Positions 2,931 through 64,000 of a stretch of 64,000 nucleotides of DNA are shown in pieces. Origin of the DNA: a virus (lineage: Duplodnaviria > Caudoviricetes); the IMG/VR virus record IMGVR_UViG_2928424016_000001, positions 1 through 64,000 of that record, one strand, 5' to 3'. The notes under the pieces were generated by a model that searched no databases, was not told the DNA's origin, and was given only the letters and a program-made list of their open reading frames with translations. Every line of letters begins with the position of its first letter. Positions within the stretch are counted from its first letter, which is position 1. Position numbers and translations under genes: made by a program.

Positions 2931-3617
2931 TTAAGGCGGATGCCCCACAAAAATAACCCGGCCCACCACGGCCAGATCCTCCACCCGGTTCGCGTCAAAT
3001 GTCTCGACCGGGTATTTTCCTGCGGTGTTGTCTGAGATCAGCTCCAGCCTGCCGTCCATGCGCCAGTTGGCGCGTTTGACCAGGACGGTGTTGCCGACGT
3101 TGAAGACGTAGATGCGGCCGTGGTCGACGGTGGTCTGGCTGGCGTCGACGATGAGCAGGGAGTTGTCCGGGATCGAGGGCAGCATGCTGTCGCCCGTGGA
3201 CCACATGAGGAAGCAGTGGTCGGGGGAGCCTCCGAGATCTCTCAGGAACTTGCGTTCAAATGCGGTTTCGCTGGTGGGCATCTGGTGGATTGCGATCAGC
3301 CCGTTTCCGGCCGAGGCGCGGACATCGTATTCCGGCATCAGCACCAGATCGTGCTTCGATTCCCTCAACTGCTCAGCGCTGGGGGGGCTTATGAACATCT
3401 CACCCTGGCCGGTAAATAACCAATTGAGATTTACGTTCTTTTCGCGTTGTAAGGTGGCGAGAAACGACCAGTCGGGCGACCTGTCCCCACGTTCGTAATT
3501 CCCCAGCGTACCATCATTCACGCCAATGCTTTCGGCGAATTCACGGCGATCCATACCCTTCCGGATCTGCGCCAGCCGCGCTCCGACGCCATTAGCTATT
3601 TTTGCAGGTCTTCCCAT
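2931..3617 (-). CDS. Phage repressor, XRE HTH + S24 peptidase
   Basis: N-terminal HTH; SAG cleavage site; GDSM catalytic Ser; VKR Lys; divergent from ner. Confidence 0.9.
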   Translation of the reverse strand: MGRPAKIANGVGARLAQIRKGMDRREFAESIGVNDGTLGNYERGDRSPDWSFLATLQREKNVNLNWLFTGQGEMFISPPSAEQLRESKHDLVLMPEYDVRASAGNGLIAIHQMPTSETAFERKFLRDLGGSPDHCFLMWSTGDSMLPSIPDNSLLIVDASQTTVDHGRIYVFNVGNTVLVKRANWRMDGRLELISDNTAGKYPVETFDANRVEDLAVVGRVIFVGHPP

Positions 3618-6611: not shown

Positions 6612-8674
6612 AGGAGTGGTTTTCGCTGGCCGAGCTTGCGGAACTGAACCTGCCGGGGTTGCCGGGCAATGCTGCAAGCCTGCATCGTCTCGCCGTCAAC
6701 CAGAATTGGCGCCACCATCCCGGTCTGGCGCGGCAGGTGAAAGGCACGACCAAGAAGATCTGGGAATATCATGTTTCGCTGCTGCCGCATTCGGCGCGGA
6801 CACGGCTGACCATTGCCTCCGGATCGCAAACGCCCGAGCAGTGGCAGGCGATGATGGCGCGCAAAAACCGCATTTGGGCACGGTTTGAAAGGCTTTCAAA
6901 CGAGCATCGAGCGATCTGTAAAACCCGTTTCGAGGTGCTTTGCCGGGTGGAAGCGCTGGCGGCCCAGCCGGGTGTCAGCCGCGCGGCTGCCATTGCCATT
7001 GCAACGGCCGATGCCGGTGTTCAGAAGTCTGCCTATTATGCCTGGAAGGCGCTGACGAAGGATCTCAGCCGGGAGGACTGGCTGGCCGCGCTTGCGCCAT
7101 CGCTGTCGCCCAGCTTTACGATCATGCCGGAGATGGCCGATATCCATCCCGAGGCCTGGATTTTCCTGAAATCCGATTACCTGCGGCCGGAAAGGCCCGC
7201 CTTTGCCGCCTGCTATCGGCGGATGATGAAGGTTGCCAAGCGGGAAAACTGGTCGCCGATCCCCTCCGAACGGTCGCTGCGCCGCCGTTTCGACCGCGAA
7301 GTCGGCAAGGCGGTCACGCTTTTGAAGCGCGAGGGCAGGGACAAGGCAAAGGCGCTCTATCCTGCCCAGCGCCGCAGCCGTGCGGATCTGCATGCCATGC
7401 AGATGGTCAACATGGACGGCCACAAGATCGATGTGTTCGTTTCGGTGCCCTGGGCGAAGAAGCCGGTGCGGTTTTTCCTGATCGGTATTCAGGATCTCTA
7501 TTCCGGCAAGATTGTCGCCTGGCGGCTTTCCGAATCCGAAACCTGGGAAGCGGTGCGGCTGGTGATCGGCGATATGGTCGAGACCTTCGGCATTCCCGAA
7601 GACATCTATATCGACAACGGCAAGGCCTTTGCCAGCAAGTGGATCACCGGCGGTACGGTCAACCGGTTTCGCTTCAAGGTGAAGCCGGAAGATCCGCGCG
7701 GTCTGCTGACGACGCTCGGGATCGAGGTGCACTGGACCCGGCCTTATTCCGGCCAGTCCAAACCCATTGAGCGCGCCTGGCGGGATCTGGCGGAAAACAT
7801 CTCCAAGCATCCCTTCTGCGCCGGGGCCTATACCGGCAACAAGCCGGATGCCAAGCCGGAAAACTATATGGAGCGGGCCATTCCGCTCGAAGATTTCCGG
7901 GCGCATGTCGCCGCGCAGATCGTCGAACACAATGCGCAGGAGGGGCGGCGGGCCGAAAACTGCAAGGGCCGCAGCTTCGACGAGACCTTTGCCGCCTCCA
8001 TGGCCGCGCCGACCACCATCGTCCGGGTGCCGTCCAGGGCGCAGGCCTCGCTTTGGCTTCTCGCCTCCGAGGCGATCAAGACCCAGAAATCGAATGGCGG
8101 GGTGCATTTCCAGGGCAATCGATACTGGCATCCGGCGCTGAACGAATGGGCCGGAAAGCAGGTGATCATCCGCTTCGATCCCGATGCGCTGCACAAGCCG
8201 ATCAAGGTCTATGACCTGAAGAACCGGCTGATCTGCGAAGCAGGCTGCCTGGACGATGCAGGCTTCAGCAACAGGGACGATGCCCGTTCGCATGCGCGGC
8301 TTGCCAAGGCGCACCAGAAGGCGGTGGCCGCCAAGGCCGAGGCGGAAGCGGCACTCACGGCCCAGCAGCTTGGCGAGATCTATTACAAGGGATTGAAGCC
8401 GAAGCCGGTGGACGCGCCGGAGATCATCCGGCCTGCGGTGACGCGGTTGATTACCCGCACCCAGCAGGTGGAAGCGCCTGTCGAGGCAATTTCCGATCAG
8501 CATTTCGAAGACAGTTTTTCCCGCGCGCTGGGCCTGATCCAGGGCGGCGGGATCATTGAATTCCCGCGAGGGAATAGCCTGGCGTCGCGTGTTGCAGACG
8601 CCGGAAACAACGAGCCGAAAAGTAAAGCGTACGGTTCCGGAAAAAAGAAGGGCAGTCCGAAGACTGCCCGATAA
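6608..8674 (+). CDS. Mu-type DDE transposase A
   Basis: N-terminal Mu DNA-binding domain; NMDGH, YIDNG, KPIER catalytic motifs; Mu transposase C-terminal domain. Confidence 0.95.
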   Translation: MKEWFSLAELAELNLPGLPGNAASLHRLAVNQNWRHHPGLARQVKGTTKKIWEYHVSLLPHSARTRLTIASGSQTPEQWQAMMARKNRIWARFERLSNEHRAICKTRFEVLCRVEALAAQPGVSRAAAIAIATADAGVQKSAYYAWKALTKDLSREDWLAALAPSLSPSFTIMPEMADIHPEAWIFLKSDYLRPERPAFAACYRRMMKVAKRENWSPIPSERSLRRRFDREVGKAVTLLKREGRDKAKALYPAQRRSRADLHAMQMVNMDGHKIDVFVSVPWAKKPVRFFLIGIQDLYSGKIVAWRLSESETWEAVRLVIGDMVETFGIPEDIYIDNGKAFASKWITGGTVNRFRFKVKPEDPRGLLTTLGIEVHWTRPYSGQSKPIERAWRDLAENISKHPFCAGAYTGNKPDAKPENYMERAIPLEDFRAHVAAQIVEHNAQEGRRAENCKGRSFDETFAASMAAPTTIVRVPSRAQASLWLLASEAIKTQKSNGGVHFQGNRYWHPALNEWAGKQVIIRFDPDALHKPIKVYDLKNRLICEAGCLDDAGFSNRDDARSHARLAKAHQKAVAAKAEAEAALTAQQLGEIYYKGLKPKPVDAPEIIRPAVTRLITRTQQVEAPVEAISDQHFEDSFSRALGLIQGGGIIEFPRGNSLASRVADAGNNEPKSKAYGSGKKKGSPKTAR
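8641..8669 (-). terminator. Minus-strand intrinsic terminator at the A/B junction
   Basis: GGGCAGTC-CGAA-GACTGCCC preceded on + by AAAAAAGAA. Confidence 0.55.
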
Positions 8675-17887: not shown

Positions 17888-19440
17888 TGGCCCAGCTTCT
17901 CGACCAGTATGGCAACCCGATCCGCCCAACCCAGATGAAGCAGGAGCAGGCTGCGCCGACCGTGATCGGCGTGCGCCGCCCGGTCGGCAATCATCAGGCT
18001 CCGGGTCTTACCCCGCCCAAGCTTGCCCGCATCCTGCGCGAATCGCTCGACGGCGATCCGGAGCGCTATCTGGAACTGGCCGAGGATATGGAGGAGCGCA
18101 ACGAACACTATGCCGGTGTTCTCGGTGTCCGCAAACGCCAGGTCTCGGGGCTGGAGATTACGGTGGAGGCGGCAAGCGATGCCGCCGACGATGTCGCTGA
18201 CGCCGATCTCGTCCGCGAGGTTGTCGAGCGTGACGATCTCGAAGACGAGCTTTTCGACATTCTGGATGCGATCGGCAAGGGCTTTTCCGCCACGGAAATC
18301 CTCTGGGACACATCGGAAAGCCAGTGGACGGTCGATACTCTCAAATGGCGCGACCCGCGCTGGTTCGTCTTCGATCAGGCCGACAAGGAAACCATCCGGT
18401 TGCGCAGCCCGGCAGGCGAGGAGGATCTCTGGCCCGGCAAGTGGATCGTACACCGCGCCAAGATCAAGTCCGGCCTGACGATCCGGGGCGGGCTGGCGCG
18501 CTCTGCCGCCTGGGCCTATCTCTTCAAGGCCTTCACCGCGTCCGATTGGGGGATTTTCTGCGAGGCCTACGGTCAGCCCTTGCGGCTCGGCAAATATGGA
18601 GAAAATGCCTCCGAGGTTGACAAGGAGGTGCTGCTGCGCGCCGTCAGCAATATTGCCTCGGACTTTGCCGCCACCATTCCCGAAAGCATGGTGATCGAGT
18701 TCGTCCAGGCGACCATCACCGGCAGCATCGATCTTTATGAACGCCGCTCCGACTGGCTGGACCGGCAGATCTCCAAGCTGGTGCTGGGCCAGACGGCGAC
18801 CACCGATGCGCAGGCCGGCGGCTATGCGGTCGGCAAGGTGCATGACGGCGTGCGCGAAGATATCGAGCGCGCCGATGCCCGCCAGCTGGCCGCCACGCTG
18901 AACCGCGATCTCGTCATTCCGCTGGTCTCGCTCAATCGCGGCCGGCGCAAGAAATATCCGAAGATCCGCATCGGCCGACCTGACGATATCGACATCGACA
19001 GCCTGGTCGGCAATGTCGTCAAGCTGGTGCCGCTCGGGCTTAAGGTCGGCATGTCCACCATGCGCGACCGGATCGGCCTGCCGGACCCCGGCAAGGATGA
19101 GGAACTGCTGGCGCCTGCCGCAGCCCCGGAACCGCCGCCCGCCGATCAGGCAAAGGCAAAGCCGCCCGCCATCGCCACCCAGAGCCAGATGGGCTTTGCC
19201 GCTCATGACGCCATCGACCTGGCCGCCGCTAGCATCACTGCCGAGAACTGGCAGGAGATGACGCCGCCGGTGGTCGACGGGCTGAGCGAGGCCTTGAGCC
19301 AGGCGACGTCCATCGAAGACGTGCAGGCCATCCTGGCGCGGCAGGTCAGTACCATGGGCGTCAATGCCTTTGTCGAGCTTCTGGCGCGTGCGGCTTTTTC
19401 GGCGCGGATCGCAGGTGAAGCCGATGAGGCCTTGTCGTGA
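17887..19440 (+). CDS. Portal protein (DUF935 / Mu gp29-like)
   Basis: YGQPLRLGKY, ISKLVLGQT, GKVHDGVR motifs. Confidence 0.92.
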   Translation: MAQLLDQYGNPIRPTQMKQEQAAPTVIGVRRPVGNHQAPGLTPPKLARILRESLDGDPERYLELAEDMEERNEHYAGVLGVRKRQVSGLEITVEAASDAADDVADADLVREVVERDDLEDELFDILDAIGKGFSATEILWDTSESQWTVDTLKWRDPRWFVFDQADKETIRLRSPAGEEDLWPGKWIVHRAKIKSGLTIRGGLARSAAWAYLFKAFTASDWGIFCEAYGQPLRLGKYGENASEVDKEVLLRAVSNIASDFAATIPESMVIEFVQATITGSIDLYERRSDWLDRQISKLVLGQTATTDAQAGGYAVGKVHDGVREDIERADARQLAATLNRDLVIPLVSLNRGRRKKYPKIRIGRPDDIDIDSLVGNVVKLVPLGLKVGMSTMRDRIGLPDPGKDEELLAPAAAPEPPPADQAKAKPPAIATQSQMGFAAHDAIDLAAASITAENWQEMTPPVVDGLSEALSQATSIEDVQAILARQVSTMGVNAFVELLARAAFSARIAGEADEALS

Positions 19441-20732
19441 CGGCGACCATTCAGGCGATAAAGCCTGAAGACGCCATCAAGGCGCTGAAGGCGCGCGGTC
19501 AAACGCTGGCCCCGTCCTTTTCCTGGCAGGACGTCTATGCCGAGGAACACGCCCGGCAGTTCACGGTCGCCAAGTCTGCCGGTTTCGACATTCTGACCGA
19601 TCTGTTTGACGGCGTTCAAACGGTTCTGGATGAAGGGATTGCGGTCGAAAAGGCGATCAGGACGATTACGCCGATCCTGCAGGCCAAGGGCTGGTGGGGC
19701 GTGCAGCAGGTCACCGATCCGCTGACCGGCAAAACCGGTCCGGCGCAGCTTGGTTCGCCCCGCCGCCTGCAACTGATCTTCGATGCGAACCTCCGGGTGT
19801 CTTATGCTGCCGGTCATTGGGCCGCCTTCGAGCGCAACAAGGCGCGCCGTCCCTGGCTGCGCTATGTCTGCGTTCTCGACGGACGCACCCGGCCGGAGCA
19901 TCGCAAGCGGCACAATCTCTGCCTTCCGGTCGATCATCCCTATTGGGACACCTGGGCACCGCCTTGCGGCTGGAATTGCCGCTGCACCTTGCAGAGCTTG
20001 TCGGACCGCGATGTCGATCGCATGCGCGGGCAGTTGACCTTCACGCCGCCGGACGACGATCTGGTGACTTTCACCAACAAGCGCACCGGTGAGGTCCGGA
20101 TGATCCCGCGCGGCATCGATCCGGGCTGGGACCATAATCCCGGCAACGCCGGATACCGCGCTTTCGATGCGGCCGAGAAGCTGATCGATGCACCGCCGAT
20201 CCTGGCCGCGCAAGTAAACAAGGACCCGGACTGGCTGGTAAAGCCACTCGGCGATGATTTCGCCCGCTGGTTCGATGCGGCAATGGCCGGCGGCCGGGTC
20301 GACCGCTCCATCGTCGTCGTCGGGGCCTTGTCCGAGGAGGTTCTGGCCGCGCTCGCAAGGACGGGCATCGCGCCCGGGAGCGGGGCGATCACGCTCACCC
20401 AGCAGACGGCGCTGCATATGCTGCGCGATAGCAAGGCGAGCGCGGGCAGGGGCGTCGACGCCGCCGTGCTGCGACAGCTACCGGCCAATCTCAGCCGTCC
20501 GAGGGCGGTGCTGCGCGACAGACGCGACGGTGCGCTTCTTTATGTCTTCGACAGCGGACACGATCCGCGCCTGGCCAAGATCGTCGTGAAGGTCGATTTT
20601 GAGACCAAGGCCCGCCCGCCTGGCGGAAAGCCGCAGTCGATCAAAACCAATTCGATCCGCACGGCGGGTCTCGTCGATGCGGTGACGCTTGCCGATCCGT
20701 CTGCCTATGAGGTGTTGTCGGGGAAGATTTGA
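19437..20732 (+). CDS. MuF (gp30-like) minor head protein with a C-terminal PBECR2-like nuclease extension
   Basis: RTRPEH...PPCGWNCRC MuF motif; extra ~185-aa domain HMLRDSK...PRAVLRD...LLYVF...NSIRTAG. Confidence 0.85.
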   Translation: MTATIQAIKPEDAIKALKARGQTLAPSFSWQDVYAEEHARQFTVAKSAGFDILTDLFDGVQTVLDEGIAVEKAIRTITPILQAKGWWGVQQVTDPLTGKTGPAQLGSPRRLQLIFDANLRVSYAAGHWAAFERNKARRPWLRYVCVLDGRTRPEHRKRHNLCLPVDHPYWDTWAPPCGWNCRCTLQSLSDRDVDRMRGQLTFTPPDDDLVTFTNKRTGEVRMIPRGIDPGWDHNPGNAGYRAFDAAEKLIDAPPILAAQVNKDPDWLVKPLGDDFARWFDAAMAGGRVDRSIVVVGALSEEVLAALARTGIAPGSGAITLTQQTALHMLRDSKASAGRGVDAAVLRQLPANLSRPRAVLRDRRDGALLYVFDSGHDPRLAKIVVKVDFETKARPPGGKPQSIKTNSIRTAGLVDAVTLADPSAYEVLSGKI

Positions 20733-20835
20733 TGGCCACCGGGGGGTACGCCACCTTCCCCGTAACAGTGTCGCCGTTGCCAGGACGGGATCACTGAACC
20801 GGACCGGCGATTTCCCGGTTGTCGCGGCGGCCATC
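20731..20835 (+). ncRNA. Candidate cloverleaf ncRNA immediately downstream of MuF (prophage 1)
   Basis: Closing stem GATGGCC/GGCCATC plus three hairpins; core conserved and co-varying with 63149-63248. Confidence 0.6.
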
Positions 20836-21042
20836 TCCTCCATCATACGCCGATGAGGCGGGATTTCAACGGGGCGCACAGAAGGCCACAGACGCGCAGC
20901 AAGCGTTCGGATGGGCGACGACACCGGCAAGCCCCCAGAAACGCGCCCACGGAGTTTGAAGACGGTTTGAATTCGAAGCCTTGTCTCTCTCCCGCGTCGT
21001 GTTATGTCTTGAAGGACCGTCTCATTGCCACCGGGCCTTATC

Positions 21043-27312: not shown

Positions 27313-30300
27313 TGGCCGCCCCTTTGAAACTTGGCATCACCGTCGCCATGGATGCAAGCGGTGTTACGGCCGGTGCGCAGGCCACCCGGCAGGCGATTGC
27401 AGGCATCGGCACGGAAGCTGTCACCAGCGCCACGAAGCTGCAGAAGCTGGTCGATGCCGAGCTCGGTCTTGCCCGCCCGGCGGCCAATTCCAATTCGCGC
27501 GCCGCAGACATTGCCGCCTATGGTGCCGAGCTCGACCGGCTGCGCGCCAAATTCAACCCGCTCTATGCCGTCACCGCCACCTACAAGACGGCGGTGGCCG
27601 AGATCCGCCAGGCGCATCGGCTGGGTGCGATTTCCGCCGATGAGATGACGGCGGCGATCAGCCGGCAGCGGCAGGCGACCCTTGCCTCGATCGATGCGAT
27701 CAAGGGACGCAATGCCGCGATCAGGGCGGGGCAGGGTGGTGGTGGGGCAAACACGTCCTTTGCCGCCACCAATACGATGTATCAGTTTCAGGATATCGCC
27801 ACGACCGCCGCCATGGGGATGAGCCCGGCGATGATCGGCCTGCAGCAGGGCAGCCAGATTGCCGGTGCCTATGCCGGATTGTCCCTGAAGGATGCCGCCA
27901 AGACCACAGCCTCGGCGCTGACCTCTCTTCTCAGCCCAACCTCAATCGCAGCAATCGCGCTTACCGCCGGTGCGGCTGCCGCGATCCAGTTCGGCATGGG
28001 GCTGTCGCAGTCGAGCAGTGACGCCAAGAAGCTTGAAGAGGTGCTGGGCAGCCATGCGGAGACGGTCGAGCGGCTGAAGAAGCAATATGGCGATCTGGGC
28101 TCGGCGATCAAATCCGCCATGCCGATCGGCGGCGCGGGCTTTACCGACGCCTCCGCCCGAAACGAGATCGCCACGCTGGAAACGGCGATCAAGAAACAGT
28201 CGGAAGACCTTGCCACGAGCTTCGGCGGTTTCTTGAAGGGCGGCCTGCTCGGCTCTTCCACCGCCGGGCTCGACGCGCTCCTTTCCACCGATGCCTCGCC
28301 GTTCCAGAAACAGGTCAACGATCTTTTGACCTCGGTGCGGGCGGGCAAGGGCGATCTCAGCACCTTCCAGACCGAGATCGAGAGCGCCTTCGATGCGCTT
28401 CGCCAGTCCAGCGATGCACCGGCCAAACTGAACGCGGAGATGGAGCGGCTGACGGCCGCCGCGCAGGATGCCTTTTCCGTTTCGCCGAAGTTCGAGCCGT
28501 TCCAGGCCGAAATCGCCAAGCTGACCCTCGGCCTTAAAAACGGCAATGCCGACCTCTCTGACTTCGCGACTAATGTCAGCCGGATCGGGCAGTTGAACGG
28601 CCTTCAGAAGGTGGCCGACGAGGTGATCCTCGCCTCGAAGGGGGCCGTAGAGCTGGCCGAGACCTTGCGCGAGGTCCGGGCGATCATCCAGCAGATGGAT
28701 CGGGAGGACACGCGCTCCGGCCTGTCCGCCCAGCGCGAGACGGCACGCTATGTGAACCTTCGGGCGGCGGCTCTGCAGGACGCCAATGCAAAGTTTGCCG
28801 CCGATCAGCAGTTGATCCTGGCTCAGACCAATGCCGAGAAGCTTGCAGCGATCGAGGCGCGGGTGCGTGCCTCGGCCAGAGAGGACGGCGACAAGGATGG
28901 CGGCTTGCAGGCGCGGATCGACCGGGAACTGACCGCCGAGCGCAACAGGCAGGCGGTGGAGGCGCGCAATGCCACGCTCGCGCGGACCGAAAGCATCCAG
29001 CAGACCATCGCCCAGCAGCGGCTTGAGCTTTCTCTGATCGGTCAGACGACGGCGGCGCGGGAAGAGCAGCTTTTTGCCGAACAGCAGATTTCGACCATCC
29101 GGCAGGAGGCGGCCCGGACGGGTGCGGCAATCGACGAGCAGGAAATCAGCCGTATCCGCCAGAAGGCTGCCGAATACGGGCGGCTGAAGGCCGAGATCGA
29201 GGCGGCCAATTATCTGCAGAGCCAGACCGCAAATCTCGACCGGCTGCGCTATCAGACGGCGATCGCCACGCAGCCGGTATCGCAGCAGTCGGCGCTTCTG
29301 GCGCAATATGATGCCGAGGTCAAAATCCGCGAGCTTGGAGCCGATCCGACATCGGACCGGGCCGAAGCGATCCGGCGGGTGGCGCGTGAGACAGCCGCCT
29401 GGAACACTCAGCTTGCCAGAACCACCGAGGCCTGGAACGCCGTCCAGCAATCGGCCGGCAACACCATCGACAGCATTGTCGACGGTCTTTCCTCCGGCAA
29501 TATCAAGGATGCCCTGAAGACCATCGTCAGCGACATCAACAAGACCTTTCTGGAACTGGCGATCAAGAACCCGATCAAGAACGCCTTGCTCGGCACGAGC
29601 TCCGGCACCTTGAGCGATGTCGGCGGCATCGGCGGCATCTTCTCCCGGCTGTTCGGCGGCGGCTCGTCCAGTGCCACGTCGCTTGCCAGCAAGGCGCTCG
29701 GCCAGTCGGTGGGCACCATGCAGGTGGCGGCCGGAACCGTGATGCTGAATGGCGGGGTGACCGGCGGCCTGACCACTTTGCTTGGTGGCACTCAGACTGC
29801 TGCCAACAGCAATTCCAGCCTTCTCGATCTTTCCTCCTATCGCAAGGCCATCTCCTCGATCGAAAGCGGCGGCAACTATTCCGCGCTCGGGCCGCTCACC
29901 GCCTCCGGCGACCGCGCTTACGGGGCCTATCAGGTCATGGGCGCGAACATTCCCTCCTGGACGAAGGCAACGCTCGGCACGTCGATGACGCCGAACGAAT
30001 TCCTGGCGAGTTCAGAAGCGCAGGATGCGGTGTTCAATAAGTATTTCGGGGCCTCGGTTGCCAAATACGGCAATGCCCAGGATGCCGCCTCGGTGTGGTT
30101 TTCCGGCCGTCCGCTGTCGAGTGCCGCCAATGCCTCGGACGCTCTCGGCACGACCAGCACCGCCTATGTCGACAAGTTCAATTCAGCGCTCGGCAATGTC
30201 ACCGGATCGACCAACAGCGCCGCTTCCGGGCTGAGCGGTCTGAACAGCGCCACCGGCGTTGCCGCCAAGGGGCTGGACGGTCTGGGCTCCGGCCTCGGCA

Positions 30301-31486: not shown

Positions 31487-32115
31487 TGCGGGATATCGAT
31501 AGCGCCACCTTGACCGCGCTGGAGCGCGCGCCGATTGACGGCTTTGCCCCGAGAACGCTCGCCTGGTTCACCGCAAAGGAACGCACGACCGGCAATTCTG
31601 TCGGGCGCGGCTTCTGGTCCGGGGATGAGGATCTGAACCTGACGGTGTTCGGCGGCATTGACGGGTCGCTGGTCAGCCGTCCCTATCTTGCGGCGGGCAA
31701 TCTCTTGAAGATCAGTGATATTCCGCAGACCTCGGATTTTACCGTCCAGACGATCACCATCGACATTTCCCAGATCGCTACCGCCGCCCGCCAGCTGGTG
31801 CGCGAATACGATTTGAGGCTCGGCAAGATCGAGATCCACGAATTGCTGATCGATCCGAAGACCGGCGAACAGATCGCGCCGGGCATGATCATCTTCATGG
31901 GCGAGATCGACGGCGCACCGATCAAGACGCCACGTGCCGGCGGAACGGGATCGGCCTCGATCAAGGCCGTTTCGGATGTCATGTCGATGCTGACCCGCTC
32001 CAATCCGGTCAAAAGCTCCTATGAGGGCCAGAAGGTGCGCCAGGACGACCAGTGGGGAAAGGACACCGCCGTGATCGCCACCTGGAAGATCGCCTGGGGC
32101 CAGAAGTCCACCTGA
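31486..32115 (+). CDS. Tail hub/baseplate-like protein
   Basis: GFWSGD motif; position. Confidence 0.65.
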   Translation: MRDIDSATLTALERAPIDGFAPRTLAWFTAKERTTGNSVGRGFWSGDEDLNLTVFGGIDGSLVSRPYLAAGNLLKISDIPQTSDFTVQTITIDISQIATAARQLVREYDLRLGKIEIHELLIDPKTGEQIAPGMIIFMGEIDGAPIKTPRAGGTGSASIKAVSDVMSMLTRSNPVKSSYEGQKVRQDDQWGKDTAVIATWKIAWGQKST

Positions 32116-58938: not shown

Positions 58939-60296
58939 AGTCCCCAGCCGTTCCTCTTTATGGCTACCAGCAGCGCTGGCTGCTCGATCGCTCACGCTTC
59001 AAGCTCGGCATGTTCGCCCGCCAGACCGGTAAGACCTTTACGACCACGCTGGAGACGGTTGACACCTGCTTTGAAGCCGCCGTGTCCGGAAAGCGTGAGC
59101 GTTGGGTGATCCTGTCGCGCGGGGAGCGTCAGGCGCGCGAAGCGATGAACGAGGGGATCAAGGTCCATTGCAAGGCCTATGATCTCGCTTTTCAGGAGGC
59201 GGAGTTCGATTGGGAAGGCGAGAGCGGCACCCACAAGGCGCTGGAAGTGACGCTGCCGCATGGCTCGAAGATCACTGCGCTGCCGGCCAATCCCGATACG
59301 GCGCGCGGCTTTTCCGCCAATGTGTTTCTGGACGAGTTCGCCTTTCATAAGGACAGCCAGCAGATCTGGCGGGCGCTCTTTCCCGTCATCTCCAAGGGCT
59401 GGAGCATTCGCGTTACCTCGACCCCGAACGGCAAGAGCAACAAGTTCTACGAGCTTGCGACCGGACCGGAGAGCGATCCCTGGAGCCGTCATATTGTCGA
59501 TATCTATCAGGCCGTCCGCGACGGGCTGCCGCGTGACATCGAAGAATTGCGCGCGGGTCTGGCGGACGAGGATAGCTGGGCGCAGGAATTCGAACTGAAA
59601 TGGCTCGATGAGGCAAGTGCCTGGCTCTCCTATGAGCTGATTTCCTCCTGCGAGGACGAGAAGGCCGGTGATCCGGAGGGCTATCAGGGCAATGTCTGCT
59701 TTGTCGGGCGCGATATCGGCCGGCGCGAAGACCTGCATGTCATCTGGGTTTGGGAGCAGATCGGTGACGTCCTTTGGGAGCGGGAGCGCATCGAGCAGAA
59801 GCGCGCCACCTTTGCCGAGATGGACGAGGCCTTCGACGATGTGATGCGGCGCTACCGGGTCGGCCGGGCCTGTATCGACCAGACCGGCATGGGCGAGAAG
59901 GTGACCGAAGACGCGCAGCGCCGCTATGGCAGCCGCATCGAAGGCGTGCTGTTTACCGCGCCCAACAAGCTCGTCATGGCGACACGCGGCAAGGAGCGGT
60001 TCGAGGATCGTACCGTGCGTATCCGCCAGGGCGACCAGAAGCTTCGGGCCGATCTGCACAAGCTGCGCAAGGTGGCGTCTGCCACAGGTGCGCCGCGCTT
60101 TGTCGCCGAGCGCGATGACGACCATGCCGACCGCACCTGGGCGGCCTTCCTCGGCATCCACGCCGCCGATGGGCTGGTTGGCGAATATGCCTATCAGCCG
60201 GCCCCAGCGCCGAAACCCCGATTTTCCGAAAGCCAGACCGAGGATGAACAGCCCTACCGGATGGCGTCGATGCGCAACAAACGCGGAGGCTATTGA
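58935..60296 (+). CDS. terL: Terminase large subunit
   Basis: Nearly identical to 16523-17887. Confidence 0.93.
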   Translation: MKSPAVPLYGYQQRWLLDRSRFKLGMFARQTGKTFTTTLETVDTCFEAAVSGKRERWVILSRGERQAREAMNEGIKVHCKAYDLAFQEAEFDWEGESGTHKALEVTLPHGSKITALPANPDTARGFSANVFLDEFAFHKDSQQIWRALFPVISKGWSIRVTSTPNGKSNKFYELATGPESDPWSRHIVDIYQAVRDGLPRDIEELRAGLADEDSWAQEFELKWLDEASAWLSYELISSCEDEKAGDPEGYQGNVCFVGRDIGRREDLHVIWVWEQIGDVLWERERIEQKRATFAEMDEAFDDVMRRYRVGRACIDQTGMGEKVTEDAQRRYGSRIEGVLFTAPNKLVMATRGKERFEDRTVRIRQGDQKLRADLHKLRKVASATGAPRFVAERDDDHADRTWAAFLGIHAADGLVGEYAYQPAPAPKPRFSESQTEDEQPYRMASMRNKRGGY

Positions 60297-61852
60297 TGGC
60301 CCAGGTTCTCGACCAGTACGGCAACCCGATCCGCCCGACCCAGATGAAGCAGGAGCAGGCCGCACCGACCGTGATCGGCGTGCGCCGCCCGGTCGGCAAT
60401 CATCAGGCTCCGGGTCTCACGCCGCCCAAGCTTGCCCGCATCCTGCGCGAATCGCTCGACGGCGATCCAGAGCGCTATCTGGAACTGGCCGAGGATATGG
60501 AGGAGCGCAACGAACATTATGCCGGTGTTCTCGGTGTCCGCAAACGGCAGGTCTCGGGGCTGGAGATCACGGTGGAGGCGGCAAGCGATGCCGCCGACGA
60601 TGTCGCTGCTGCTGATCTCGTGCGCGATGTGATTGACCGCGACGACCTTGAGGATGAGCTGTTCGATATTCTCGATGCTGTCGGCAAAGGGTTTTCAGCA
60701 ACTGAGATCATTTGGGACACGTCGGAGGGCCAGTGGACGGTCGACGCGCTGAAATGGCGTGATCCGCGCTGGTTCGTGTTCGACCGCAATGATGGCGAGA
60801 CACTGCGCCTTCGCGGTCCAGCGGGTGACGAGGATCTATGGCCGGCCAAATGGATCGTCCATCGCTCCAAGATCAAGTCCGGCCTGACGATCCGGGGCGG
60901 GCTGGCGCGCTCTGCCGCCTGGGCCTATTTGTTCAAGACGTTCACTGCGTCTGACTGGGCGATCTTTTGCGAGGCCTACGGTCAGCCGCTTCGGATCGGG
61001 AAATACGGCGAGAACGCGTCTGAAGAGGACAAAGCTATCCTGCTTCGCGCCGTCTCTTCGGTGGCCTCAGACTTTGCCGCCACGATCCCTGAGGGCATGC
61101 TGATCGAGTTCGTCCAGGCGTCAATCACTGGCAGCATCGACCTTTATGAGCGGCGCGCCGACTGGCTTGATCGCCAGATCTCCAAGCTTGTCTTGGGCCA
61201 GACCGGGACGACGGACGCGCAGGCGGGCGGCTATGCGGTCGGCAAGGTGCATGACGGTGTGCGCGAAGATATCGAGCGCGCCGATGCCCGTCAGCTTGCC
61301 GCCACGCTGAACCGCGATCTCATTATTCCGCTGGTCTCGCTCAACCTCGGGCCGCGCAAGAAATATCCGAAGATCCGTATCGGCCGTCCGGACGAGACCG
61401 ATATCAACAATCTGGTTTCGAACGTCGTCAAGTTGGTGCCGCTGGGCCTGAAGGTGGGCATGTCGACCATGCGCGACAAGCTCGGTCTACCCGATCCCGA
61501 CAAGGATGAGGAATTACTCATGCCCCGCGCCGCAGCGCGCGCGCAGCCATCTGACCAGCAAGACCAGCCATTACCGACAGCCATAGCCGCGCAAAGCCAA
61601 GCTGCTGCGGCCAATCATGATGCGATTGATCTTGCATCTGCCAGGATCACGGACGACAACTGGCAGGAAATGACCCCGCCCGTAGTCGATGGCCTGGCCG
61701 AAGCGTTGAGTGGGGCAGCCTCGGTCGAGGAAGCGCAGGCCATCATGGCGCGCCACGTCAGCGCCATGGGCGTCAATGCCTTCGTGCAGCAGCTCGCCCG
61801 CGCGGCGTTTGCGGCGAGGATCTCCGGAGAAGCTGACGAGGCCCTTTCATGA
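60296..61852 (+). CDS. Portal protein (DUF935)
   Basis: Homolog of 17887-19440. Confidence 0.92.
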   Translation: MAQVLDQYGNPIRPTQMKQEQAAPTVIGVRRPVGNHQAPGLTPPKLARILRESLDGDPERYLELAEDMEERNEHYAGVLGVRKRQVSGLEITVEAASDAADDVAAADLVRDVIDRDDLEDELFDILDAVGKGFSATEIIWDTSEGQWTVDALKWRDPRWFVFDRNDGETLRLRGPAGDEDLWPAKWIVHRSKIKSGLTIRGGLARSAAWAYLFKTFTASDWAIFCEAYGQPLRIGKYGENASEEDKAILLRAVSSVASDFAATIPEGMLIEFVQASITGSIDLYERRADWLDRQISKLVLGQTGTTDAQAGGYAVGKVHDGVREDIERADARQLAATLNRDLIIPLVSLNLGPRKKYPKIRIGRPDETDINNLVSNVVKLVPLGLKVGMSTMRDKLGLPDPDKDEELLMPRAAARAQPSDQQDQPLPTAIAAQSQAAAANHDAIDLASARITDDNWQEMTPPVVDGLAEALSGAASVEEAQAIMARHVSAMGVNAFVQQLARAAFAARISGEADEALS

Positions 61853-63144
61853 CCGCGACGATCGCGGCACTCAAACCTGAAGACGCGATCAAGGCGCTGA
61901 AAGCACGCGGTGAAACGCTGGCTCCATCCTTCTCATGGCAAGATGTCTACGCAGAGGAACATGCCCAGCAGCTCACGGTCGCAAAATCTGCTGGCTTCGA
62001 CATCCTCACGGATCTGTTCGACGGCCTTCAAACCAGCCTTGCAGAGGGAAAGACATTCCGGGACTTTGCCAGCCAGATCACGCCGATCCTGCAGGCCAAG
62101 GGCTGGTGGGGTGTACAGCAGGTCACTGATCCGCTGACCGGCGAGCGCCGTAAAGCGCAGCTCGGCTCGACCAGTCGCCTGCAACTGATCTTCAACGCCA
62201 ATATGCGTGTGTCCTATGCGGCAGGGCATTGGGCAGCCTTTGAGCGTAATAAGGCCCGCCGGCCCTGGCTGCGTTATGTGTGCATTCTTGATGACCGGAC
62301 CCGACCGGAGCATCGCAAGCGGCACAATCTCTGCCTTCCGGTCGATCATCCCTATTGGGACACCTGGGCACCGCCTTGCGGGTGGAATTGCCGCTGCACC
62401 TTGCAGAGCCTGTCGGATCGGGACGTCGAACGCATGCGGGGCGAGCTGAAGTTTACGCCGCCCGATGATGACTTCGTCGCCTTCACCAACAAGCGCACAG
62501 GTGAGATCCGGATGATCCCGCGCGGCATCGATCCAGGCTGGGATCATAATCCCGGCAAGGCGGGATACCGTGCCTTCGACGCGGCCGAGAAGCTGATCGC
62601 CGCGCCGCCTGTCATGGCCGCCCAGGTCAACAAAGATCCGGACTGGCTGATCAAGCCACTGGGCGACGACTTTGCCCGTTGGTTCGATGCGGCGACGGCC
62701 GGCGGGCGCGTCGATCGCTCGATCGTCGTCGTCGGTGCTTTGTCGGACGATGTCCTGTCGTCGCTTGCCAAAGGCGGGATCACGCCGCAGTCCGGTGCGA
62801 TCACCCTGACGCAGCAGGTAGCGCTGCACATGGTGCGTGACGCAAAAGCGGGCGCTGGCAAGGCGGTTGATATGGCCGCTCTGCGGCAGTTGCCCTTCAA
62901 TCTCAACCGGCCTCGGGCGGTGCTGCGCGACAGGCGCGATGGTGCGCTTCTTTATGTCTTCGATAGCGGCCAAGATCCGCGCCTGGCGAAGGTCGTGGTG
63001 AAAATCGATTTTGCTGACAAGGGCCGGCCACCTGGGGGAAAGGCGCAAACGATCGTCACCAATTCAATCCGGACGGCTGGTCTGGTCGAGACGCGCGTCC
63101 TGACCGACAAAAACACCTACGACCTGATGAGCGGAACGATTTAG
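61849..63144 (+). CDS. MuF minor head protein with a PBECR2-like C-terminal extension
   Basis: Homolog of 19437-20732, same length. Confidence 0.85.
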   Translation: MTATIAALKPEDAIKALKARGETLAPSFSWQDVYAEEHAQQLTVAKSAGFDILTDLFDGLQTSLAEGKTFRDFASQITPILQAKGWWGVQQVTDPLTGERRKAQLGSTSRLQLIFNANMRVSYAAGHWAAFERNKARRPWLRYVCILDDRTRPEHRKRHNLCLPVDHPYWDTWAPPCGWNCRCTLQSLSDRDVERMRGELKFTPPDDDFVAFTNKRTGEIRMIPRGIDPGWDHNPGKAGYRAFDAAEKLIAAPPVMAAQVNKDPDWLIKPLGDDFARWFDAATAGGRVDRSIVVVGALSDDVLSSLAKGGITPQSGAITLTQQVALHMVRDAKAGAGKAVDMAALRQLPFNLNRPRAVLRDRRDGALLYVFDSGQDPRLAKVVVKIDFADKGRPPGGKAQTIVTNSIRTAGLVETRVLTDKNTYDLMSGTI

Positions 63145-63148
63145 GAGA

Positions 63149-63248
63149 TGTGGCCATCAAGGGGGTACGCCACTCTCCCCGTAACAGTAGCCTGCGTTGC
63201 AGGGCACCAAACCGGACGTGCGATTTCCCGGTTGTCATGATGGCCACA
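63149..63248 (+). ncRNA. Candidate cloverleaf ncRNA downstream of MuF (prophage 2)
   Basis: Perfect 11-bp closing stem TGTGGCCATCA/TGATGGCCACA; conserved core. Confidence 0.6.
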
Positions 63249-63456
63249 AAGTCAAAATACGCGTCACGGGCATGGAATTCAAGGAGGCCCGATTTAAGCG
63301 CCACAGACGCGCGTGGAGCGCTCTTTCGGGCGGTGGCGCGCGCCGAACCCGAAAGAGCGCTCCACGGGCTTCAAACCGGCTTCAAAATCGAAGCCTTGCC
63401 TCATCCCTCGATCATGATATGAGTTTCCTGTCCGCTTCGGATCAGGTCGCGCTCAT

Positions 63457-63502
63457 CCGGTCACCCTACCGGCTGTTTTCAAATTGAGCGCCGGGGCAAT
63501 CT
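63457..63502 (+). promoter_or_regulatory. Late promoter (head operon), prophage 2
   Basis: CCGGTCACCCTACCGGCTGTTTT-N17-CAATCT. Confidence 0.75.
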
Positions 63503-63508
63503 CGCCCC

Positions 63509-64000
63509 ATGACGAAACGCACCCAAACACTCTTTCCCGGCCTTGTCGCCGCTCACTCCATGATGCTGTCCGACACAGCGTTGCCGGCTGATGGCGCGTC
63601 GGGTCGCTGGATCATGTTGTTGCCGATCGGATCGTTTTCCGGCCGGGATGGTCGCGGTCCTTATTCGGTCGACGGCATGGACGGCATGCAGGCGGTGATC
63701 GCCGCGACCGCGCAGCGCGCTGGCAGCGCCGACCTCGTGGTCGATTACGATCATCAGACGCAGTTTGCGGCCGTTCCGGGTGTCGGCGGGCAAGCGCCGG
63801 CAGCAGGCTGGATCAAGCAACTCCAAGCCCGTGCCGACGGTCTCTACGGCCTCGTCGAATGGACGGCAAAGGCTGCGCAGTCCATTCGCGCCGAGGAATA
63901 TCGCTACATCTCTCCGGTCTATCAGCACGATAAGAGCGGTCGGGTGCTGCGGCTGATTTCCGCCGGCCTTACCAACGTGCCCAATCTCGATCTTGCGGCC
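63509..64000 (+). CDS. Mu gpI-like protease (partial, runs off the window)
   Basis: LVVDYDHQT, AAGWI, YRYISP, LTNVPNL; homolog of 21094. Confidence 0.9.
   Translation, partial: MTKRTQTLFPGLVAAHSMMLSDTALPADGASGRWIMLLPIGSFSGRDGRGPYSVDGMDGMQAVIAATAQRAGSADLVVDYDHQTQFAAVPGVGGQAPAAGWIKQLQARADGLYGLVEWTAKAAQSIRAEEYRYISPVYQHDKSGRVLRLISAGLTNVPNLDLAA

What the first reader, a model, noticed from the sequence alone, without database searches (positions are those of the whole stretch)
61849..63248. Independent copy of the MuF-nuclease + cloverleaf RNA unit with compensatory changes
Seen: 4 nt after the stop, the closing stem is a different sequence but perfectly paired (TGTGGCCATCA/TGATGGCCACA). Hairpin 1 keeps GGGGT-ACGCC-AC with CTCT in place of CCTT (both pair with the G-run by wobble). 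The middle hairpin is replaced (CCTGC/GCAGG). GTAACAGT and AACCGGAC..GCGATTTCCCGGTTGTC are invariant, while downstream DNA is unalignable until the promoter. Structure is conserved with sequence turnover, which supports a functional RNA. The two alleles allow a cognate versus non-cognate specificity test.
Basis: partly seen in the sequence, partly recalled or inferred. Interest (0 to 1): 0.8.

Follow-up and report, generated by a model that had tools for sequence, protein, structure and literature searches.

The report
Antisense small-RNA gene behind phage MuF
Both Mu-like prophages in this window carry, just after the head-protein gene MuF, a conserved 100-base folded RNA gene that appears to be read backwards from its own promoter. 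It was found only where MuF keeps an intact predicted RNA-cutting tail, so it is probably that enzyme's RNA partner or antidote, a pairing I could not find in print.

Summary
A 100-nt four-helix element (63149-63248) starts 4 nt after the MuF stop. A second copy (20731-20835) has different but still paired stems.

It belongs to a family of at least 45 distinct sequences in Alphaproteobacteria, Desulfovibrionales, Nitrospirota and Elusimicrobia. Covariation is strong: 28 of 30 pairs show compensatory changes. No Rfam family or tRNA matches.

The interpretation needs one major correction, the strand:
- A sigma-70-type promoter (TTG, 16-18 nt, NATNNT) points into the element from downstream in 25 of 36 loci and in none on the MuF side.
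- G-U pairs outnumber A-C 85 to 26 on the minus strand.

So this is a separate antisense small-RNA gene, not a MuF 3'UTR.

The MuF C-terminal domain is homologous to phage Mu's MuF-C (hhalign 98.6%), a predicted BECR-fold RNase. Every locus that keeps its H-x2-R-x2-K motif has an RNA gene. Three lineages that lost the motif, phage Mu included, have none.

Best reading (about 0.5): a tRNA-shaped RNA partner of the virion-borne RNase, most likely its inhibitor. No expression or binding data exist. Earlier notes of this scan describe sister RNAs behind MuF on other DNA.

The parts
61849..63144 (+). MuF (gp30/F-like minor head protein) gene of prophage 2, 431 aa
   Evidence: ORF list. Pfam Phage_Mu_F matches residues 60-185, E 3.5e-19. 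PHROG 220 'minor head protein and DNA pilot' matches residues 3-391. It lies between the portal gene (60293-61852) and the gpI protease gene (from 63509).
62542..63141 (+). C-terminal 200 aa of MuF: MuF-C / PBECR-like domain with invariant H, K, D, N and near-invariant R and K
   Evidence: hhalign against the phage Mu gp30 C-terminus: probability 98.6%, E 8.5e-16. Sub-threshold Pfam MuF_C, PBECR2 or PBECR3 matches in 8 of 10 members. Invariant columns. AlphaFold pLDDT 89.9 and 86.8. The best structural neighbours are BECR or RelE-type RNase toxins, Z 6.3 to 4.
63149..63248 (-). Small-RNA gene, copy 2: four-way junction P1-P2-P3-P4, read on the minus strand
   Evidence: Covariance-model hits at 94.1 and 90.5 bits. 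Covariation. Strand from the promoter and from G-U/A-C counts.
63254..63282 (-). Predicted sigma-70-type promoter of the RNA gene. The -35 TTGAAT is at 63282-63277, the spacer is 17 nt, and the -10 TATTTT is at 63259-63254. The predicted start is about 63248.
   Evidence: Read from the sequence. This copy matches 8 of 12 consensus positions, below the scan tool's cut-off. The same architecture is found in 25 of 36 family members against 1.3% of random windows.
19437..20732 (+). MuF gene of prophage 1, 431 aa, 82% identical to copy 2
20731..20835 (-). Small-RNA gene, copy 1. Its last paired bases overlap the MuF stop codon.
   Evidence: Covariance-model hits at 92.5 and 103.2 bits. Alignment with copy 2.
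20842..20869 (-). Promoter of copy 1: TTGAAA, 16 nt, TATGAT (10 of 12 consensus positions)
   Evidence: Found by the consensus scan on the minus strand; 0.1 such sites expected in shuffles.

Best explanation
The element is a separate gene for a stable, roughly 100-nt structured RNA. It is transcribed from the minus strand, convergent with MuF, from its own sigma-70-type promoter, and starts at the first base of the closing helix.

The RNA folds into a four-way junction whose order of arms matches a tRNA: long closing helix, hairpin P2, variable two-part hairpin P3, a 4-nt linker, then hairpin P4 next to the 3' strand. The P2 and P4 loops probably pair with each other (CGCC with GGCG), like a tRNA elbow.

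Its function is tied to the C-terminal MuF-C/PBECR domain of the neighbouring MuF, a predicted BECR-fold RNase carried in the virion. Most likely the RNA binds that domain as a pseudo-substrate and keeps it inactive. That would protect the producing cell during assembly, and the lysogen when kin phages inject the enzyme. In short, an RNA 'immunity' factor in the place where other MuF toxins have an immunity protein.

Shown here: the family, the fold, the promoter signal, the strand bias, the homology of the protein domain, and the co-occurrence. Inferred: transcription itself, the RNA ends, binding, inhibition and RNase activity.
For: (1) Real RNA structure. 28 of 30 pairs have changes on both sides; covariation score 0.539 against 0.163 in shuffles and at most 0.111 in slid registers. 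An alignment not fitted to the model recovers P1, P2 and P4.

(2) Own promoter on the minus strand. TTG, 16-18 nt, NATNNT ends 4-11 nt before P1 in 25 of 36 loci, 0 of 36 on the other side and 1.3% of random windows. The scan tool finds it for copy 1. Each of three tandem copies in L192 has its own -10 box.

(3) Strand.
- G-U 85 against A-C 26 on the minus strand, on an alignment fitted in the plus sense.
- In P3 alone, 45 against 22 with a strand-neutral stem finder.
- The minus strand folds better in 26 of 35 sequences, by 2.9 kcal/mol on average.

(4) Loop-loop pairing. It is kept by compensatory changes in L074 and L060 and between the three L192 copies, and by wobble in L020 and L183.

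(5) The protein partner. The C-domain is homologous to Mu gp30 MuF-C, which Iyer et al. 2017 class as a PBECR predicted RNase, inactive in Mu itself (PMC5512222). The structural neighbours are BrnT, colicin D, RelE, HigB and CdiA-CT RNases.

(6) Coupling.
- Every locus whose C-domain keeps the His motif and whose MuF reading frame runs to its stop has an RNA gene behind it: detected by the model, or seen by eye as a divergent or enlarged form, or as a T-arm-bearing cousin.
- The two lineages with H, R and K replaced have no match.
- Phage Mu has V, G and A at those places, its F gene overlaps G, and it has no match.
- The 49 loci whose MuF has another tail or none have no match, although their N-domains are up to 68% identical to the query, more than in many RNA-positive loci.

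(7) Action in trans is plausible. Tandem arrays exist, and so does a pair of copies away from any MuF.
Against: - The promoter, the start and especially the 3' end are predictions, and no terminator follows the RNA.
- The strand lean is about 3 to 1, not absolute. The sequences are related, so the counts are not independent.
- One conserved G.T next to the P4 loop would pair only on the plus strand.
- RNase activity of MuF-C is unproven. Pfam matches are below threshold, Foldseek finds nothing, and the VIA Z-scores of 6.3 or less lie in the range where a shared arrangement can be chance.
- The coupling to the motif rests on only three independent losses.
- Co-occurrence cannot tell an inhibitor from a substrate, cofactor or cargo.
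Confidence: 0.5

Rival explanations
1. The RNA is a substrate, cofactor or cargo of MuF-C rather than its inhibitor. The domain might process the RNA's 3' end, need it to fold or to enter the procapsid, or carry it into the next host.
For: It shares the co-occurrence with the intact motif. No terminator follows the RNA, so the 3' end must be made by cleavage or trimming. Iyer et al. suggest an RNA-binding role for MuF-C.
Against: The promoter looks constitutive and independent of the late genes, which fits a protective factor present before MuF better than a late assembly cofactor. Phage Mu assembles without such an RNA.
Confidence: 0.15
2. It is an anti-defence decoy: a tRNA-shaped RNA that soaks up a host tRNA-directed nuclease or other defence protein, and sits beside MuF only because the F-I gap is a hot spot for accessory genes.
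For: The arm order is tRNA-like, and the cousins in L079 and L085 carry a canonical T-arm sequence. Copies occur away from MuF and in arrays. From my own knowledge, Pseudomonas Mu-like phages keep anti-CRISPR genes at the equivalent place.
Against: It does not explain why the RNA is missing exactly where the H/R/K motif of MuF-C is lost, nor why the RNA abuts the MuF stop within a few bases in nearly all loci.
Confidence: 0.1
3. It regulates in cis or by antisense. Convergent transcription from the RNA promoter, or pairing with read-through MuF transcripts, would end or silence the upstream late operon before the head promoter. The fold would only stabilise the RNA.
For: It sits convergently at the end of the lysis-to-F operon and back to back with the late promoter upstream of gpI. 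There are precedents such as lambda OOP (own knowledge).
Against: The loops and junctions are invariant over phyla while the stems drift, and a loop-loop tertiary contact covaries. That points to a specific three-dimensional shape, not a stabiliser. The RNA hardly overlaps the MuF coding sequence. Orphan and tandem copies occur in the other orientation to the head genes. The link to catalytic residues is left unexplained.
Confidence: 0.1
4. One reading: the element is on the plus strand, in the 3' untranslated end of the MuF mRNA, and is cut out or bound there by the nuclease domain.
For: The plus strand is certainly transcribed during late growth and folds nearly as well for the two window copies. 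One conserved G.T beside a loop pairs only on that strand. The element abuts the stop codon.
Against: There is no promoter-independent reason for the conserved -35 and -10 boxes that face the element. A.C mismatches are common on the plus strand, where the minus strand has G.U. Copies occur with no MuF upstream.
Confidence: 0.07
5. It is a DNA-level site, such as a gyrase, packaging or regulator site, and not an RNA.
For: Phage Mu has its strong gyrase site in the G-I gap (annotation).
Against: The stems change by compensatory substitutions with G-U tolerance, and arm sequences differ freely between phages. A double-stranded protein-binding site would not behave so.
Confidence: 0.03

Closest known systems
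Type III toxin-antitoxin systems (ToxIN, CptIN, TenpIN)
   Same: If the best reading is right, a structured RNA directly neutralises a protein endoribonuclease and is encoded next to it on a phage-related element. Arrays of RNA copies occur (L192, L151).
   Different: - The RNA gene is convergent with its own promoter. It is not a repeat array upstream of the toxin in one operon.
- The RNA is one 100-nt four-way junction, not 34-36-nt pseudoknot repeats.
- The protein is a BECR-like domain fused to a virion head protein, not a ToxN/AbiQ-fold protein.
- Binding and processing are untested.
MuF polymorphic toxins with immunity proteins (Jamet et al. 2017, PMC5576092)
   Same: An N-terminal MuF domain carries a variable C-terminal effector, often a nuclease, in temperate phages. 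A protective factor is expected immediately downstream.
   Different: [quoted passage not shown] Here no conserved ORF follows, and an RNA gene takes the place. That paper treats Mu GpF as a single-domain protein.
MuF-C / PBECR predicted RNase domains (Iyer et al. 2017, PMC5512222; Pfam PF18819, PF18810, PF18812)
   Same: The C-terminal domain is homologous to Mu gp30 MuF-C and keeps a conserved histidine, as the active PBECR clades do.
   Different: That paper describes no RNA partner or immunity factor. Pfam models reach only sub-threshold scores on this subfamily.
tRNA and phage-encoded tRNA-like RNAs
   Same: A four-way junction with the same order of arms, a 4-nt linker where tRNA has its variable loop, at most one base between the last hairpin and the 3' strand, and loop-loop contact between the first and last hairpins. 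Related MuF-C genes in L079 and L085 are followed by RNAs with a canonical T-arm sequence.
   Different: Not called by ARAGORN or by Rfam's tRNA model. It has a 10-11 bp closing helix, 12-nt loops, no 7-nt anticodon loop and no single-stranded CCA end.
Phage antisense and immunity RNAs (lambda OOP, P22 sar, P1/P7 c4, P4 CI)
   Same: A small prophage-encoded RNA with its own promoter, convergent with or antisense to a phage operon (own knowledge).
   Different: Those act by base pairing with a complementary transcript. This RNA scarcely overlaps MuF, and its conserved parts are loops and junctions with no target found in the window.
Earlier notes of this scan on other genomes (e1-248131, e1-1905967, e1-5266111, e1-2648716), and an unnamed candidate next to Phage_Mu_F genes in Capnocytophaga (Fremin and Bhatt 2021, PMC8040213, supplement)
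   Same: Backward-facing small-RNA genes directly behind MuF genes with PBECR-type tails. The RNA is absent where the histidine motif is lost.
   Different: A look-up by sequence found no look-alike of this RNA among the scan's windows. Those RNAs are 80-87 nt and tRNA-like, whereas this family has its own loops. Whether the published candidate is related is unknown.

Membership tests
Any Rfam 15 family | Covariance-model match at or near the gathering score | tested here: not met
   No match at gathering level in the whole window. At E up to 10 the only matches in 63100-63520 are chance miRNA-like hits to a neighbouring hairpin.
tRNA (RF00005) | Cloverleaf with 7-bp acceptor stem, D-arm, 7-nt anticodon loop and T-loop, as detected by ARAGORN or the Rfam model | tested here: not met
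   ARAGORN finds no gene in the window or in 11 related loci. No RF00005 match. Only the order of arms and the junction lengths resemble tRNA.
Type III toxin-antitoxin | Antitoxin RNA encoded as tandem short repeats upstream of the toxin gene, in the same orientation, separated by a terminator | tested here: not met
   The usual case is a single 100-nt gene, convergent with MuF, with its own promoter. Arrays of 2-3 full genes occur in L151 and L192.
Type III toxin-antitoxin | Toxin of the ToxN/AbiQ endoribonuclease fold | tested here: inconclusive
   The structural neighbours listed are RelE/BrnT, colicin D and CdiA-CT type RNases. No ToxN-type chain is among the 50 rows shown.
Type III toxin-antitoxin | The RNA binds and inhibits the protein directly | not testable with these tools
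   The complex predictor takes proteins only. Needs biochemistry.
Phage_Mu_F (PF04233) | Pfam model above the gathering score | tested here: met
   70 bits against a cut-off of 29.6, residues 60-185.
MuF-C / PBECR (PF18819, PF18810, PF18812) | Pfam model above the gathering score | tested here: not met
   The best score is 20.4 bits against a cut-off of 27.6. MuF_C, PBECR2 or PBECR3 match weakly in 8 of 10 members, always over the same stretch.
MuF-C / PBECR | Homology to the C-terminal domain of phage Mu gp30, the type MuF-C | tested here: met
   hhalign probability 98.6%, E 8.5e-16, 187 aligned columns.
MuF-C / PBECR | BECR (barnase-EndoU-colicin E5/D-RelE) fold | tested here: inconclusive
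   For the 121-aa model the top rows are BrnT (Z 6.3, 76 residues aligned, rmsd 3.8), colicin D (5.4) and RelE (5.1), and most of the next 30 are BECR toxins. All Z-scores are below 8, and Foldseek finds nothing.
MuF-C / PBECR | Conserved catalytic-type histidine (active clades) | tested here: met
   H, K, D and N are invariant and R and K nearly so in 29 sequences. Whether they are catalytic is untested.
MuF polymorphic toxin with immunity protein | [quoted passage not shown] | tested here: not met
   Only unconserved ORFs lie in the spacer. The two copies differ there by indels that are not multiples of three.

The most novel reading that the evidence does not exclude
Mu-like phages of many phyla carry a two-part module not yet described: a BECR-fold RNase riding in the virion on the MuF head protein, and a dedicated tRNA-shaped 'immunity RNA'. 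The prophage would make this RNA constitutively to neutralise the enzyme, both its own and that injected by superinfecting kin. This would be an RNA-based counterpart of toxin-immunity pairs, and a new class of RNA inhibitor of a protein RNase that arose from a tRNA-like scaffold.
Probability: 0.35. Interest if true: 0.85.

Novelty: new variant of a known kind. Interest (0 to 1): 0.72.

Why it matters
MuF is one of the commonest phage head proteins, and the role of its C-terminal tail is unknown even in phage Mu.

A conserved RNA gene that appears only where that tail keeps enzyme-like residues gives a direct handle on the question. It predicts an activity (RNase), a regulator (the RNA), and a reason for a prophage to express something from the middle of its silent late region.

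If the RNA is an inhibitor, it widens the small set of RNA-against-protein antidotes (type III systems) to a new protein fold, a new RNA architecture and a virion-delivered effector. It would also add a new layer to superinfection immunity.

At the least, it is an uncatalogued structured RNA class with strong covariation, a probable tertiary contact and a clear genomic address, ready for a covariance model and for experiment.

Tried and rejected
- **Rfam.** Gathering and permissive thresholds gave nothing relevant.
- **ARAGORN.** No tRNA or tmRNA.
- **blastn against 50,697 phage records.** The RNA had no match.
- **Targets for the conserved loops.** The 9-mer and 8-mer complements occur in the window no more often than chance outside the elements themselves.
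- **Read-through or frameshift signal.** Rejected: the frame after the stop is open for 33 codons in copy 2 but closes after 11 in copy 1, in another register (read).
- **Intrinsic terminator for either strand.** No stem plus T-run at the element.
- **Riboswitch leader.** No gene lies downstream on the minus strand in the usual arrangement.
- **Foldseek against the PDB.** Neither the 200-aa nor the 121-aa model gave a significant match. A sequence profile against PDB chains gave none either.
- **MAFFT-only alignment.** It could not align P3. P3 was recovered only after a model with a hand-written P3 was built, so its counts lean towards that structure.
- **Weak model hits.** Those at window 7278-7376 and 27564-27655 and at L171 6146-6239 lie inside genes and were treated as false.
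- **Pleomorphomonas-type loci (L011, L012, L022, L023).** They keep a P2-like hairpin but no recognisable whole RNA. I could not decide whether this is a decayed or a remodelled copy.
- **Scan look-up by sequence.** No look-alike window.
Full report
**1. What is there**

The window holds two Mu-like prophages. In each, the portal gene is followed by a 431-aa MuF gene, a spacer of about 365 nt, and the gpI protease gene.

The finding concerns prophage 2.
- MuF lies at 61849-63144. A 100-nt element at 63149-63248 starts 4 nt after the stop.
- Its 11-nt end arms pair perfectly and enclose three hairpins.
- The copy in prophage 1 (20731-20835) keeps the loops, the linker and the third hairpin letter for letter. 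It has other, still paired, letters in the closing helix and a different middle hairpin.
- The invariant 17-mer occurs twice in the window against 0.02 expected. The element occurs only twice in the genome.

**2. A family with strong covariation**

MuF relatives were fetched from virus and genome collections, and a loop-anchored pattern scan was added. Together they gave many loci with the same element directly behind MuF.

Two covariance models find 46 true matches, 45 of them distinct. The hosts are Rhizobiales and other Alphaproteobacteria, Nitratidesulfovibrio and Desulfovibrio, a Nitrospirota genome and an Elusimicrobia bin.

On the model-fitted alignment:

| Measure | Observed | Control |
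|---|---|---|
| Cells that form a standard pair | 85.8% | 63.6% in shuffles |
| Pairs with changes on both sides | 28 of 30 | - |
| Covariation score | 0.539 | 0.163 in shuffles (0 of 500 reach it); at most 0.111 in slid registers |

RNAalifold on plain MAFFT alignments, which are not fitted to any model, recovers three of the four helices. The family is sporadic, as expected for phage cargo: 1 of 150 other genomes of the order has it. No Rfam family and no tRNA caller recognises it.

**3. The strand**

- *Promoter.* A few bases beyond the element's downstream end, nearly every member has a hexamer that reads NATNNT on the minus strand, with TTG 16-18 nt further on. The spacers between them are not conserved. 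Scored blindly, 25 of 36 loci have this promoter ending 4-11 nt before the first paired base. None of 36 has it on the MuF side, and 1.3% of random windows from the same loci have it.
- *Window copies.* For copy 1 the consensus scan reports TTGAAA, 16 nt, TATGAT at 20869-20842. Copy 2 has TTGAAT, 17 nt, TATTTT at 63282-63254, which is 8 of 12 matches and just under that tool's cut-off.
- *Arrays.* In a low-GC relative, three tandem copies each have their own -10 box.
- *Pair chemistry.* Over 30 pairs and 45 sequences, G-U outnumbers A-C 85 to 26 when read on the minus strand, even though the alignment was fitted in the plus sense. One P3 position alternates between G-U (24 sequences) and G-C (13).
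- *Strand-neutral check.* A stem finder that treats both strands alike gives 45 against 22 in P3.
- *Energies.* The minus strand folds better in 26 of 35 sequences.
- *Contrary signal.* A conserved G.T next to one loop would pair only on the plus strand. It never covaries within the main group.

I conclude, at about 0.85, that this is an independent minus-strand RNA gene whose transcript begins at the closing helix. Its 3' end is unknown. No terminator follows, so it must be made by trimming or cleavage back to the helix.

**4. Architecture on the minus strand**

The order of parts is:
- P1, 10-11 bp
- a 4-nt joint
- P2, 6 bp with a 12-nt loop that begins GAAA
- P3 directly after P2, in two parts, free in sequence and length, and even carrying a 75-nt insertion in L061
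- a 4-nt joint
- P4, 4 bp with a 12-nt loop
- at most one base
- the 3' strand of P1

The P2 and P4 loops carry CGCC and GGCG. This contact is kept by wobble in L020 and L183. It is kept by double changes in L074 (CGCU with AGCG) and L060 (UCGGU with ACCGA), and between the three L192 copies.

The order of arms, the joint lengths and a contact between the first and last loops resemble a tRNA without an anticodon loop. This is a resemblance only, since the tRNA membership tests fail.

**5. The neighbour**

Pfam sees only the N-terminal Phage_Mu_F domain. The last 200 residues are nevertheless conserved.
- They carry an invariant H, K, D and N and near-invariant R and K, arranged as H-x2-R-x2-K and then D, K and N.
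- They give sub-threshold MuF_C, PBECR2 or PBECR3 matches in 8 of 10 members.
- They align to the C-terminus of phage Mu gp30 with hhalign probability 98.6%.

Iyer et al. 2017 define that Mu domain (MuF-C) as a PBECR domain, a predicted RNase of the barnase-EndoU-colicin-RelE fold. They call it inactive in Mu itself and probably active in its orthologues.

AlphaFold models are confident (pLDDT 89.9 and 86.8). For the isolated 121-aa domain the best structural neighbours are BrnT (Z 6.3), colicin D (5.4), RelE (5.1), and then mostly HigB, YoeB, YafQ, ParE and CdiA-CT toxins. These Z-scores are modest and Foldseek is silent. The fold is therefore supported but not proven, and the activity is untested.

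**6. Coupling of the RNA and the domain**

A profile of the C-domain finds it in every RNA-positive locus where the MuF end was captured. The exception is L151, discussed in section 7.

| Loci | State of the MuF tail | RNA gene behind MuF |
|---|---|---|
| All loci with an intact MuF gene and the His kept | H kept; R, K, K and N kept in most | Always present: model match, divergent four-way junction seen by eye (L040, L057, L064, L073), enlarged form (L061), or T-arm-bearing RNA (L079, L085) |
| Pleomorphomonas type | H, R and K replaced | No match |
| L013/L077 type | H, R and K replaced | No match |
| Phage Mu | V, G and A at those places; F overlaps G, so no room for a gene | No match |
| 49 loci | Another C-terminal tail or none | No match, although their N-domains are up to 68% identical to the query, more than in many positive loci |

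The RNA thus follows the tail, and apparently its catalytic-type residues, rather than MuF as such. The caveat is that this rests on three independent losses, and the loci are related.

**7. Variations**

- L192 has three tandem RNA genes behind the domain.
- One provirus has the usual copy behind MuF plus two tandem copies 25 kb away. These sit upstream of two Mor-like activator genes and a gpI gene, in the same direction as those genes, with no MuF-C nearby.

So the RNA can be duplicated and can stand apart from MuF. That argues for action in trans.

**8. Mechanism**

The best-supported reading is that the RNA is the dedicated partner of the MuF-C RNase. The most likely form is a pseudo-substrate inhibitor. 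BECR toxins commonly cut tRNA, and a tRNA-shaped RNA lacking an anticodon loop could occupy the enzyme without being consumed.

A promoter of housekeeping type would keep the RNA present in the lysogen and before late genes fire. That would protect against the cell's own enzyme during assembly and against enzyme injected by related phages. It is the role that small immunity ORFs are proposed to play for other MuF toxins.

The steps from promoter to transcript, and from neighbourhood to binding and inhibition, are inference. The rivals are substrate, cofactor or cargo; decoy for a host nuclease; antisense or interference regulator; plus-strand 3'UTR element; and DNA site. They are weighed in their own section.

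The two window alleles share all loops and joints, so I expect cross-protection rather than allele specificity.

**9. What is known**

I found no paper that describes an RNA gene behind MuF. The nearest printed item is an unnamed candidate next to Phage_Mu_F genes in Capnocytophaga, in a 2021 supplement.

Earlier notes of this scan, on other genomes, describe backward-facing tRNA-like or folded RNAs behind MuF genes with PBECR tails, and the same rule that the RNA is lacking where the histidine is lost. Those are unchecked AI notes.
- I reached the strand assignment before reading them.
- I tested the motif rule on this family independently.
- A look-up by sequence shows that this RNA family had not been seen in the scan.

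**10. Verdict**

This is a real, uncatalogued structured small-RNA family with its own promoter, genetically coupled to a predicted virion-borne RNase.

- Confidence that it is a minus-strand RNA gene: about 0.85.
- Confidence that it is functionally tied to MuF-C: about 0.65.
- Confidence that it is specifically an inhibitor: about 0.35-0.4.

Noticed in passing
window 63306-63372: A long, near-perfect GC-rich hairpin (about 19 bp of stem) lies between the RNA promoter and the late promoter in prophage 2 only. Prophage 1 has unrelated sequence there. It gave chance miRNA-like Rfam hits.
   Followed up: no
window 63300-63312 and 20887-20899: A conserved 13-nt block lies 12-20 nt upstream of the RNA promoter's -35 box, seen from the minus strand. 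It is shared with L009, L014, L017 and L098 while the flanks drift. It may be a regulator site for the RNA promoter.
   Followed up: no
L151 6693-6797 and 6806-6907 (IMG/VR provirus 2643221835_000002): Two tandem RNA genes with no MuF-C nearby. They point the same way as two Mor-like activator genes and a gpI gene just downstream. The same provirus has the usual copy behind MuF at 31619-31720.
   Followed up: partly
L192 1365-1839: Three tandem, diverged RNA genes behind one MuF-C gene in a lower-GC virus contig. Each has its own -10 box, and the loop-loop tetrads differ compensatorily between the copies.
   Followed up: partly
L079 about 3120-3202; L085 about 1610-1737: MuF genes with a homologous, motif-intact C-domain (Rhodocyclaceae and Burkholderiaceae bins) are followed on the minus strand by a closed RNA. 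Its last hairpin carries a canonical tRNA T-arm sequence. Neither ARAGORN nor Rfam calls it a tRNA.
   Followed up: partly
L175 3675-3748 (Ochrobactrum phage POA1180, KX669658): A cultured phage whose MuF has a different tail carries a smaller three-way folded element right after the MuF stop, with a -10-like box facing it. It does not match the model.
   Followed up: partly
L048, L051, L055, L059, first 45 nt after the MuF stop: MuF genes of Jiella, Fulvimarina and Aurantimonas, which have another C-terminal domain, share a nearly identical 45-nt block just after the stop. It may be a different downstream element.
   Followed up: no
L010 (IMG/VR 643348505_000006, second prophage): The MuF C-domain breaks off after about 142 of 200 profile positions and unrelated sequence follows. 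The RNA gene is missing there.
   Followed up: no
window 61849-64000 compared with phage Mu (L197): These prophages have no G (gp31) gene between F and I. In Mu, F overlaps G, and the G-I gap holds the annotated gyrase cut site.
   Followed up: no
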